A stretch of DNA of 64,000 nucleotides from Antedon mediterranea. Lineage: Eukaryota; Animalia; Echinodermata. The position numbers were made by a program, and so were the translations under genes. A model generated the notes under the pieces. The model was not told the DNA's origin. It searched no databases and worked only from the letters and a program-made list of their open reading frames with translations. Within the stretch, counting starts at the first letter, position 1. The number at the start of each line of letters is the position of its first letter. Shown here in pieces: positions 3,385 to 64,000 of the stretch. The DNA lies in NCBI RefSeq assembly GCF_964355755.1, contig NC_092679.1, forward strand, positions 24,101,432 through 24,165,431. The letters are read 5' to 3'.

Positions 3385-32565
<29,181 letters not shown>

Positions 32566-39623: not shown

Positions 39624-61059
<21,436 letters not shown>

Positions 61060-61510
61060 CTGGCTGTGCATCCTGTCCGCGTATGTAAAGACACCCTACA
61101 ACTCCACTTACGAGGCTTCTCGGTAGCAGATGACCCTCGAGGACCTAGTGAAGTGCGTGGCGACGGTAGAGAAACAAAACTAAGCGTTAAAAGTGACGCT
61201 GCTCGATTACAACCGCCACATCTACCGGAACCACCTCGCTTACATGACCCCCTCTATCTGTTACCTAGAGTCAAGAGTGGTGGAAATTGATAGTTATTCA
61301 TTTATAAATTTAAAAGTGTGTACACATGAGTGTATACATCAGCCAATCCTCATACAGTATCATCTAATGACAGTAAACAGTCTGCAGTATTGTGTCTGCT
61401 GATGACAGCAGACCCATTCATAATACCTAATATTAAGTTACTGTATCTGTCTCTCTAAAAAAATAACAACTACATTTATAAGGTTGGTCTACTGATTGGA
61501 AAACTAAATA

Positions 61511-61610
61511 CCAATTTACGAGCGGTAATGGTAAGCCATAAACGGTATAAATATAGAATCTATATTATTTCTCTTTTTAAGCTTACCATTACCGCTTGTC
61601 AGTAAATTGG
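61511..61610. repeat. Inverted repeat / MITE remnant in the presumed CDKL 3' UTR
   Basis: CCAATTTAC.AGCGGTAATGGTAAGC ... GCTTACCATTACCGCTT..GTAAATTGG. Confidence 0.65.
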
Positions 61611-61788
61611 CCTTAACTAACCATTAACCATTCAGCTAAACAGCTGAATTGCATAGAGGCGTTAACACAACACTTTTGAAAAAGTCAGGAGATGCTATTC
61701 AGTAGCCCATGTGGGATGGCTGTGTCCGTCGGCCGACATGATATTGCAGACTGATTAGTTCTTCTCTAATAACGTTGAACAATCTTTA

Positions 61789-62751
61789 TCTAAGTATTAT
61801 TAATATACTGTTAAGTATTATTAATATACTGTTAAGTATTATTGATATACTGTTAAGTATTATTGATATACTGTTAAGTATTATTGATATACTGTTAAGT
61901 ATTATTGATATACTGTTAAGTATTATTGATATACTGTTAAGTATTATTGATATACTGTTAAGTATTATTGATATACTGTTAAGTATTATTGATATACTGT
62001 TAAGTATTATTGATATACTGTTAAGTATTATTAATATACTGTTAAGTATTATTGATATACTGTACTGTTAAGTATTATTGATATACTGTTAAGTATTATT
62101 GATATACTGTTAAGTATTATTGATATACTGTTAAGTATTATTAATATACTGTTAAGTATTATTGATATACTGTTAAGTATTATTGATATACTGTTAAGTA
62201 TTATTGATATACTGTTAAGTATTATTGATATACTGTTAAGTATTATTGATATACTGTTAAGTATTATTGATATACTGTTAAGTATTATTGATATACTGTT
62301 AAGTATTATTGATATACTGTTAAGTATTATTGATATACTGTTAAGTATTATTGATATACTGTTAAGTATTATTGATATACTGTTAAGTATTATTGATATA
62401 CTGTTAAGTATTATTGATATACTGTTAAGTATTATTGATATACTGTTAAGTATTATTGATATACTGTTAAGTATTATTGATATACTGTTAAGTATTATTG
62501 ATATACTGTTAAGTATTATTGATATACTGTTAAGTATTATTGATATACTGTTAAGTATTATTGATATACTGTTAAGTATTATTGATATACTGTTAAGTAT
62601 TATTGATATACTGTTAAGTATTATTGATATACTGTTAAGTATTATTGATATACTGTTAAGTATTATTAATATACTGTTAAGTATTATTGATATACTGTTA
62701 AGTATTATTGATATACTGTTAAGTATTATTGATATACTGTTAAGTATTATT
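61789..62751. repeat. 21-bp AT-rich minisatellite, ~46 copies (TAAGTATTATTGATATACTGT)
   Basis: Tandem array; explains ORFs 61775-62071 and 62049-62777. Confidence 0.97.
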
Positions 62752-64000
62752 ATACTAACTTTATTCCAAACTGTCATAATGCTTGAAAGTCATTTTCCAT
62801 TCCAACCGCGGTCAGGATGCCGTCGTAATTTTACGAATTCTACAGTTGCCAATTCCTTTTTTGCTGCGTATTGGTGTTCATTTTACCAAATCTTTTTGCT
62901 GTAATTAAAAATAAAATAGTTGTTGCTGTAGATGTTGTATGCTCACTGCACGCACGACAACACTGTTATCGCAGTGACTCAAATGCTGATGATTTCTATC
63001 TTAAATTCTACTTTTCATTATCATTTTTAGTAAACTTTAAATTTAATTTGGTTATATCAGGGAAGAGTGTATTTCACTGTCCTCTGGTTATATTAATTTA
63101 GACATTACTGGTTACTGTATATTCTTGTGAATAAAACATAGGATAAATAATCAAAGTTGAATACTCAAAAGCACTATGATTTTCATATACAATGGCTGTT
63201 TCGAATCAACTAATCCAATACCGGTTTAAAGCTGCTACAAAGCTTACAGCAATTTGTGCATAATAGCACCATGAATATATTCTTTAAAGATACTTGGATT
63301 TTAATTATTATTCATTTCATTATCATTCTCACAATAGATATAATCTACAAAAACTACTGTATTGAAAAGTACTTATTAGAATTCCTATACTAGGTGCCAA
63401 GGCAGCCATCTTACTATCCATGCATTCAACAACACATGAACAAAATGAAATTTAATTGTTTATTTTTTCTTTTTATAAGTGGAAACATTGGTTTTCATTT
63501 TTTTTTTTATGGAAGAGATTAACTTTATTAAAACTACAAATGAAAGTCTGATTTTATTAACCTTCATTTTTCATGTTTTTGAAGGTTTTTTCCCTGTGAA
63601 ACAAACGAGGGCCAATTATAACACTATAACGAATCTCTCATTTTTACATTTAAATCAATAAACTCGGGTAGGCCAAATTTTTATGGTAATTTGTAAAATA
63701 TAGAATTTTCAACTAAATTATTTTGGTCATATTTCGTATACACAAGAATATGCAGTAACTCGGGCATACCAGTTATTTGGATTAGGTTACAGCTTGTAGT
63801 AAACACAAACGCGTACAGAATGCATGGTTACGATTATTTATGTTATTTTTTTTTCATATTTAATCAAATTGTACACATTTTTAATGAATGTTATTTGTCT
63901 TTGTATATAATGTAAAAATTAATATGCATGTTATAGGTATGTTTACTAGGGTAGTTCCAAAAAAATTGCTTTATTAAAAAAAACATACATTTCAGTATTT

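What the first reader, a model, noticed from the sequence alone, without database searches (positions are those of the whole stretch)
61057..61293. Candidate stop-codon readthrough giving CDKL a hidden C-terminal extension
Seen: the CDKL stop is TGA followed by CTG, and the same frame stays open for 76 more codons (LAVHPVRVCKDTLQLHLRGFSVADDPRGPSEVRGDGRETKLSVKSDAARLQPPHLPEPPRLHDPLYLLPRVKSGGN), ending in a double stop TGA-TAG. This segment is ~51% GC by hand count, and the sequence turns AT-rich right after the second stop. It re-uses LP motifs (HLPE, LLPRV) like those before the stop (LPHL, HLPHI). The AG acceptors near 61126-61129 are the wrong phase to reach this frame from the preceding phase-0 exon. 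Known: UGA-C is the leakiest stop context, and UGA-CUAG is a characterised readthrough motif, one base different from UGA-CUGG here. The 359-aa form already matches normal CDKL1 length. Inference: the gene makes 359-aa and ~436-aa isoforms by recoding.
Basis: partly seen in the sequence, partly recalled or inferred. Interest (0 to 1): 0.8.

Follow-up and report, generated by a model that had tools for sequence, protein, structure and literature searches.

The report
Hidden coding tail behind CDKL1 stop
In a feather star, the gene for the cilia-length kinase CDKL1 has 76 strongly protein-like codons directly behind its normal stop codon, so ribosomes likely sometimes read through the stop and make a longer kinase, although translation and conservation of this tail are untested.

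Summary
The gene is a nine-exon CDKL1 of 359 aa that matches the Antedon mediterranea protein. It ends at TGA-C (61057-61060), and 76 open codons follow up to TGA-TAG. This stretch is the most GC-rich 228 nt of the window. Its codon-position bias (GC 0.72/0.47/0.34) was reached by 0 of 400,000 shuffles and ends at the second stop. The first stop is old: Anneissia ends with the same residues, and 106 of 120 homologues end at an LPxI-type motif. Both public samples carry the TGA without a listed variant and show no other copy of the tail. One contig, likely RNA, runs unbroken across it. No protein homologue and no SECIS were found. Best reading: leaky UGA-C readthrough to a 436-aa isoform (about 0.55). 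Caveats: no orthologous 3' UTR could be fetched; the context misses the invariant A of UGA-CUAG; there is no stem 8-9 nt after the stop; and the coding signal is strongest after a weak out-of-phase acceptor at 61124-61129, so an alternative last exon remains possible. New member of a known kind.

The parts
39636..39803 (+). CDKL1 exon 1 (ATG; kinase N-lobe)
   Evidence: GT donor; joined frame gives 359 aa
52513..52634 (+). CDKL1 exon 2
   Evidence: AG/GT bounds
53379..53451 (+). CDKL1 exon 3
53797..53887 (+). CDKL1 exon 4 (HRD, DFG); ends in phase 1
57815..58012 (+). CDKL1 exon 5 (TDY activation loop); ends in phase 1
58644..58726 (+). CDKL1 exon 6
59335..59391 (+). CDKL1 exon 7
60568..60723 (+). 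CDKL1 exon 8; ends in phase 0; holds cryptic phase-1 GT sites at 60596 and 60605
   Evidence: 100% identical to P0001 over 52 aa
60928..61056 (+). Exon 9 coding part, ending HLPHISNN (conserved terminal LPxI motif)
61057..61063 (+). First stop and its 3' context, TGA-CTGG
   Evidence: no variant listed in X1, X2, X4, X5
61060..61287 (+). Second ORF: 76 in-frame codons, no Met, rich in Leu, Pro and Arg, ends LPRVKSGGN; candidate readthrough extension
61114..61272 (+). Predicted rod-like RNA fold inside the extension; core helix 61122-61132 with 61255-61265; borderline after correction
61124..61129 (+). TAGCAG: weak phase-1 candidate acceptors (rival explanation)
61288..61293 (+). Second stop, doubled (TGA-TAG); GC and coding score fall here
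61294..61800 (+). AT-rich 3' UTR, on the same X1 contig as exon 9

Best explanation
The CDKL1 gene ends at an old UGA-C stop that is followed by 76 in-frame codons with a strong protein-coding base pattern, and a minority of ribosomes likely read through it to make a 436-residue form of the kinase. Shown: the gene structure, the open frame and its coding pattern, the age of the stop position, and that the stretch is single-copy. Inferred: exon 8 is spliced to exon 9 and the message runs across both stops; a near-cognate tRNA decodes the UGA (Trp, Arg or Cys, recalled) at probably a few percent or less; selection on the peptide keeps the frame and the GC1 above GC3 pattern. Inferred and weaker: the tail buries the family's terminal LPxI motif and offers a similar one (LPRV) at the new end, which would change where the kinase docks or how long it lasts, plausibly in cilia; the predicted rod may modulate leakiness.
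For: Coding pattern:. GC at fourfold sites is 17 of 43, against 43 of 131 in the CDS, so the GC excess sits in amino-acid-determining positions. The pattern stops at the second stop. The first 22 codons score 2.9 bits: 29% of 35 true coding blocks score as low or lower, while 3% of intron or UTR windows score as high; likelihood ratio 5-6 for coding. Old stop: Anneissia P0002 ends HLPHISNN; starfish P0086, P0095, P0124-P0126 end HLPNISNF; 106 of 120 homologues have [LF]Px[ILV] within 5 residues of the end. Not a repeat: one contig covers 61060-61293 in each of four runs, while repeats nearby pile up. No parent protein. Likely spliced transcript: the X1 contig (1060 nt) aligns from exactly 60928 and has 158 further letters upstream, which equals 60566-60723; the intron-7 contig ends at 60595, the expected 30-nt overlap (inferred from lengths, the joint itself was not listed). 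TGA-C is the favoured context of insect readthrough candidates (36%, PMC5100048 supplement). The exclusion checks of that paper are met as far as I could test them.
Against: No orthologous 3' UTR, so no conservation test. No homologue of the tail in any search. None of the 23 other CDKL1-type transcripts with an LPxI end shows TGA-C with a long second ORF: three are TGA-C, with 4, 9 and 15+ codons, the last cut off by its contig end. The context is UGA-CUG, and the three bases after the C were critical in OPRL1. No stem close behind the stop: z = +1.3 to +2.1 for four windows starting at 61060-61065, and the best duplex is no better than shuffles. The first-order coding score gains about 3 bits over codons 1-22 and about 33 over codons 23-76. 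CpG is not depleted (observed/expected 0.94, against 0.37 in the CDS), which is unlike the rest of the coding sequence. Abundant readthrough was not seen outside Pancrustacea, so the prior is low. X1 is only guessed to be RNA, and contigs drop rare variants.
Confidence: 0.55

Rival explanations
1. Alternative last exon: codons 23-76 are spliced in through the TAGCAG acceptors (61127 or 61130) from a phase-1 donor, bypassing the TGA.
For: The coding score rises steeply from 61126. Phase-1 donors exist: the ends of exons 4 and 5, and GT at 60596, 60605 and 60728. 60605 scores 2.4, within the range of 16 true donors (-0.6 to 8.2).
Against: Both acceptors (-4.4, -7.8) score below all 17 true acceptors (lowest -1.6). 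The donors at 60596 and 60605 and those of exons 4 and 5 would cut the kinase domain, which spans residues 4-286; 60728 scores -6.2. The X1 contig is unbroken from exon 8 (inferred) through 61127. The first 22 codons are open, 53% GC, and favour coding 5-6 fold.
Confidence: 0.12
2. Relic: the stretch was once translated (an earlier readthrough tail or a captured coding fragment) and is now an untranslated leftover.
For: No homologue anywhere; no recognisable stimulator; CpG content unlike the CDS.
Against: The frame is intact over 76 codons and begins exactly at the stop. No parent protein was found, although the first database holds Antedon proteins. No second DNA copy. The stop position is shared with Anneissia and starfish, so this is not a recently truncated ancestral tail.
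Confidence: 0.13
3. A structured or CpG-rich 3' UTR element that only looks like coding sequence.
For: The rod at 61111-61275 has z = -4.2 (dinucleotide) and -5.1 (synonymous shuffles), 0 of 300 each. The core helix is stable in four folding windows. CpG observed/expected is 0.94.
Against: Those bounds were picked after seeing the fold. With position correction 13 of 250, 80 of 150 and 112 of 200 shuffles do as well, and 4 of 159 other windows reach z of -4 or lower (scan stopped at 52201). Structure does not explain an in-frame periodicity that runs from stop to stop.
Confidence: 0.08
4. The tail is translated because A-to-I editing turns UGA into UGG (Trp), not because the stop leaks.
For: In two of four folding windows A61059 pairs with 61298 (probability 0.86 and 0.96), which would place the stop in a duplex.
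Against: The pairing changes in the other two windows. No A-to-G change is listed at 61059 in X1, though contigs hide minor forms.
Confidence: 0.07
5. A separate 76-aa downstream peptide is made by re-initiation at the CUG right after the stop.
For: The second ORF starts with CUG followed by G and has no Met.
Against: Non-AUG re-initiation directly at a stop is rare in cellular mRNAs (recalled). No small-protein homologue was found.
Confidence: 0.04
6. The UGA is read as selenocysteine.
For: The codon is UGA.
Against: No SECIS family among 4 weak Rfam matches in 60900-64000. A crude SECIS scan found 0 hits in 61057-64000, against 17 and 25 on the two strands of the whole window. Homologues stop here rather than carry Cys.
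Confidence: 0.01

Closest known systems
Functional stop-codon readthrough candidates of Drosophila and Anopheles (Jungreis et al. 2016, PMC5100048; abstract, passages, section 5 part 1, supplement parts 1 and 43 and term searches seen)
   Same: TGA-C first stop; an in-frame second ORF with coding signature that falls off after the second stop; old first stop; no downstream ATG; no SECIS.
   Different: Those rest on multi-species PhyloCSF; here the evidence comes from one genome. The host is an echinoderm. No echinoderm is in the part of their species table that I read, and the sea-urchin names were not found. The fly names CG7236 and Cdkl are not in their list.
Vertebrate UGA-CUAG readthrough genes OPRL1, OPRK1, MAPK10, AQP4, MDH1 (Loughran et al. 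2014, PMC4132726; passages seen)
   Same: UGA followed by CU; MAPK10 is also a CMGC-group kinase (group membership recalled).
   Different: Here the third base after the stop is G, not the invariant A. The extension is 76 codons, against 13 in MAPK10.
UGA readthrough with an extended 3' stem: alphaviruses, Drosophila kelch and headcase (Firth et al. 2011, PMC3159437; passages seen)
   Same: UGA stop with a predicted long-range helix in the following 100-270 nt.
   Different: Known stems begin 8-9 nt after the stop; this rod begins about 55 nt after it and has no covariation support.
CDKL1/4-type ciliary kinases (Canning et al. 2018, PMC5846859; Martin-Carrascosa et al. 2025, PMC12075339; passages seen)
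   Same: Kinase domain, TDY motif, 350-390 aa, variable tail; the C-terminal region matters for cilium length in C. elegans CDKL-1.
   Different: No readthrough form appeared in my searches (listing; 0 occurrences of the term in PMC12075339).

Membership tests
CDKL1/4 kinase | Kinase domain closest to CDKL1 proteins, with a TxY activation loop | tested here: met
   Pkinase E = 1.5e-76; top homologues are named CDKL1; TDY in exon 5
Functional stop-codon readthrough | In-frame second ORF with protein-coding signature | tested here: met
   Single-genome tests only; weaker over the first 22 codons
Functional stop-codon readthrough | First stop is old, not a recent nonsense change or a sequencing error | tested here: met
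   Same protein end in Anneissia and starfish; no variant listed in two samples. The identity of the codon in other species was not seen.
Functional stop-codon readthrough | Second ORF conserved across species with synonymous bias | not testable with these tools
   No crinoid DNA besides this species could be fetched
Functional stop-codon readthrough | Signal not due to alternative splicing | tested here: inconclusive
   Weak acceptors and an unbroken contig, but the score rises at the acceptor and contigs drop rare forms
Functional stop-codon readthrough | Signal not due to a downstream ATG or a gene on the opposite strand | tested here: met
   No Met in the ORF. The one long minus-strand ORF (61035-61253) is the shadow frame, with the GC excess at its second codon position.
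Functional stop-codon readthrough | Translation past the stop shown by footprints, peptides or a reporter | not testable with these tools
   Only assembled contigs were available
UGA-CUAG class | UGA followed by CUA(G) | tested here: not met
   The context is TGA-CTGG; the first six bases are invariant in that class
3' stem-stimulated readthrough (alphavirus, kelch type) | Stem starting about 8-9 nt after the stop | tested here: not met
   the rod starts near 61114
Selenoprotein | SECIS element in the 3' UTR | tested here: not met
Transposon or repeat fragment | Other copies in the genome, or a match to mobile-element proteins | tested here: not met
   Single contig per run at 85% identity or more; no Pfam, protein or viral match. 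Older, more diverged copies were not testable.

The most novel reading that the evidence does not exclude
CDKL1 is a recurrent readthrough target outside Pancrustacea. Crinoids have evolved a long selected tail that moves the pan-animal LPxI end motif to a second terminus, giving a recoding switch for a ciliary kinase. Lophotrochozoan-like CDKL1 transcripts with a shared [QE]GQG after the stop (L003, L009) or with no stop before it (P0045) show the same process independently. Echinoderms, absent from the species rows of the readthrough survey that I saw, may hold many such genes.
Probability: 0.15. Interest if true: 0.72.

Novelty: new member of a known kind. Interest (0 to 1): 0.47.

Why it matters
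If true, it is a long functional readthrough extension in an echinoderm and in the CDKL family. I found neither in print (searches; open-access library only). Abundant readthrough is thought to be confined to insects and crustaceans, so one solid crinoid case would justify a genome-wide frame-bias test in echinoderms. It also draws attention to the terminal [LF]Px[ILV] motif, present in 106 of 120 CDKL1 homologues; my one search for it listed no paper on it in CDKL kinases. The two isoforms would be a natural experiment on what that motif does.

Tried and rejected
No whole genome is held, so no genome-wide count of second ORFs was possible. Sequencing runs: no RNA holder listed on record; X1 is a guess. 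X2-X5 are one sample and may be the window's source. Polymorphism in X1 is too low to test constraint. Protein searches with the tail found nothing: 0 of 160 candidates (only proteins of 134 aa or more), 0 hits among 1.84 billion representatives with exon 9 plus tail, best Atlas score 0.75, no Pfam family. Scans of metagenome and viral contigs found none. The second metagenome scan gave 80 CDKL-like loci; none of the 10 placed in the tree grouped with the crinoids (quick tree; 37 rows: 27 of 120 proteins and 10 of 80 loci). Tandem duplication of exon 9 was rejected: protein alignment p = 0.23 and no DNA match in the window. Similarity of the tail to homologue tails: best z = 3.7 for two paddlefish proteins among the homologue tails tested, 2 of 200 shuffles as good; not significant after multiple testing. 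Recent nonsense allele or truncated ancestral tail rejected. The tail as a stray last exon of the upstream MAP4K gene was rejected, since that gene has its own stop at 32563-32565. Local stem-loop stimulator not found. No structure prediction was run, as the tail has no alignment. Earlier findings of the scan held nothing on this locus.

Full report
What is there. The window holds a complete CDKL1 gene on the + strand: nine exons from 39636 to 61059, all introns GT-AG, giving 359 residues and one stop. Exon 8 matches the 359-aa Antedon mediterranea protein P0001 at 100% and Anneissia japonica P0002 at 75%, and the last 79 residues equal those of P0001. The source is therefore a feather star. 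The stop is TGA at 61057-61059, followed by CTGG. The same frame is open for 76 codons to TGA-TAG at 61288-61293, with GC 0.513.

Is it more than chance? The open frame alone is modest: 191 of 20,000 dinucleotide shuffles, and 29 of 4,543 stop triplets on the + strand of the window. The base pattern is the strong part. GC at the three codon positions is 0.72, 0.47 and 0.34, against 0.49, 0.33 and 0.35 in the CDS. The difference between positions 1 and 3 was reached by 1 of 20,000 dinucleotide shuffles and 0 of 400,000 mononucleotide shuffles, and it is the largest of 56 open stretches of this length on both strands. The stretch is also the most GC-rich 228 nt of the window. A three-periodic model trained on CDKL1 and ten MAP4K exon cores gives 36.4 bits in frame 0 and about zero in the other frames; 0 of 6,714 sampled windows score as high. 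The model is small and favours GC-rich amino acids, so its absolute values should not be over-read. The pattern ends at the second stop.

The first stop is old. Anneissia ends with the same HLPHISNN, and three starfish clusters or members end HLPNISNF. Of 120 homologues, 106 carry [LF]Px[ILV] within five residues of the end. No homologue tail resembles the extension beyond chance. So this is not a recent nonsense allele that cut off an ancestral tail. Contigs from two samples show no listed difference in 61057-61293, while a 3-nt deletion at 61420 shows that X1 carries another haplotype. X2-X5 are one sample and may be the window's source.

Not a repeat and no known parent. One contig per run covers the extension, whereas repeats at 61363-61407 and 61516-61623 draw many contigs. 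Searches with the tail found nothing in 5.8 billion proteins of 134 aa or more, in 1.84 billion representatives, in metagenome or viral contigs, in Pfam or in the ESM Atlas.

Transcript evidence is indirect. No run is on record as RNA. In X1, one 1060-nt contig aligns from exactly the exon-9 start (60928) to at least 61800. It carries 158 further letters on the upstream side, the length of 60566-60723, and the neighbouring intron-7 contig ends at 60595, the 30-nt overlap expected for 31-letter words. I infer an exon 8 to exon 9 splice and an unbroken message across both stops. The joint itself was not among the rows shown, and such contigs drop rare forms.

Results against readthrough. First, the cumulative coding score gains only about 3 bits over codons 1-22 and about 33 over codons 23-76, and the rise starts at the TAGCAG at 61124-61129. 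Against this route: both acceptors score below all 17 true ones, all but the weakest donor (60728) would cut the kinase domain, and the first 22 codons still favour coding 5-6 fold; the truly coding [11 protein letters not shown] just before the stop is equally flat. Second, the context is not UGA-CUAG: the mismatch falls on a base that is invariant in that class, and the three bases after the C were critical in OPRL1 (PMC4132726, passages). Third, no stem starts 8-9 nt after the stop as in alphaviruses and kelch (PMC3159437, passages; folds). A rod at 61114-61272 looks strong with hand-picked bounds (z -4.2 and -5.1), but after position correction 13 of 250, 80 of 150 and 112 of 200 shuffles match it, and 4 of 159 other windows do as well. 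Fourth, CpG is not depleted (0.94 against 0.37). Fifth, none of 23 other CDKL1-type transcripts with an LPxI end (from 80 loci; the others lacked the motif, a stop or the anchor) shows TGA-C with a long second ORF. No SECIS was found.

How it most likely works. A near-cognate tRNA occasionally decodes the UGA in its leaky C context (mechanism recalled), adding one residue and 76 more for a 436-aa kinase. The tail is rich in Leu, Pro and Arg, slightly basic, has no Met, and is likely disordered (composition; disorder inferred). It would bury the conserved LPHI and end in LPRVKSGGN, a similar motif (chance 0.029). CDKL-1 needs its C-terminal region to control cilium length in C. elegans (PMC5846859, passages), although that result concerns the alpha-J region and not this motif. 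A role in ciliary docking or turnover is therefore a guess. I put functional readthrough at 0.55, a relic at 0.13, an alternative last exon at 0.12, a structured UTR element at 0.08, A-to-I editing at 0.07, CUG re-initiation at 0.04 and selenocysteine at 0.01.

Comparison with what is known. It works like the TGA-C readthrough candidates of flies and mosquitoes (PMC5100048; section 5 part 1, passages and supplement searches). It meets their checks for an old stop, no downstream ATG, no opposite-strand gene and no SECIS; the splicing check is inconclusive; and their defining test, cross-species coding conservation, could not be run. It is not a member of the UGA-CUAG class nor of the proximal-stem class. 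That survey found abundant readthrough only in Pancrustacea; no echinoderm was in the species rows I read (part 43 of 44; the start of the table in part 42 was not read), and CG7236 and Cdkl were not in its list. Searches for CDKL, crinoid, echinoderm and sea-urchin readthrough listed no such case (listings only, open-access library only). One supplementary index file of PMC5100048 could not be searched.

A side lead. Two lophotrochozoan-like transcripts continue LQGQGLY (L003, TGA-C) and VEGQGY (L009, TGA-G) after LPNI and the stop, and P0045 reads LPNIQGQGL with no stop. L003 and L009 differ at both Gly third positions. This could be an independent readthrough, or a nucleotide motif common in those genomes (recalled). 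It shares nothing with the crinoid tail, and three sequences are too few to decide.

Verdict. The feature is real and very likely shaped by protein coding, past or present. Readthrough is the best explanation but is unproven. New member of a known kind; interest 0.47.

Noticed in passing
window 13136-32565 (+): A MAP4K3/5-like kinase gene with a CNH domain (PF00780) ends about 7 kb before CDKL1. From memory, human MAP4K5-CDKL1 and MAP4K3-CDKL4 are neighbours too, which would make this an old gene pair.
   Followed up: partly
L003:1596-1643, L009:1080-1106, protein P0045: Lophotrochozoan-like CDKL1 sequences share [QE]GQG just after the terminal LPNI: behind TGA-C, behind TGA-G, and with no stop. 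Possibly an independent readthrough or stop loss, or a nucleotide motif.
   Followed up: partly
window 61511-61610: Strong hairpin in the 3' UTR (z = -8.6) in a multi-copy stretch; probably a MITE-like repeat.
   Followed up: partly
window 61791-62751: 21-bp tandem array of 45.5 copies right behind the known 3' UTR; the first A[AT]TAAA signals after the gene lie at 62904-62910.
   Followed up: no
window 41800-43045 (-): Transposase-like open frames ([12 protein letters not shown] motif, recalled) in CDKL1 intron 1, flanked by near-identical stretches on opposite strands at about 41290-41586 and 43308-43604; no convincing Pfam match.
   Followed up: partly
window 46500-52000: Several dispersed copies of a CpG-rich repeat of about 1 kb in intron 1 (seen).
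   Followed up: no
proteins P0001-P0120: 106 of 120 CDKL1/4 homologues, from cnidarians and molluscs to mammals, end in [LF]Px[ILV], although the tails are described as poorly conserved (PMC12075339).
   Followed up: partly
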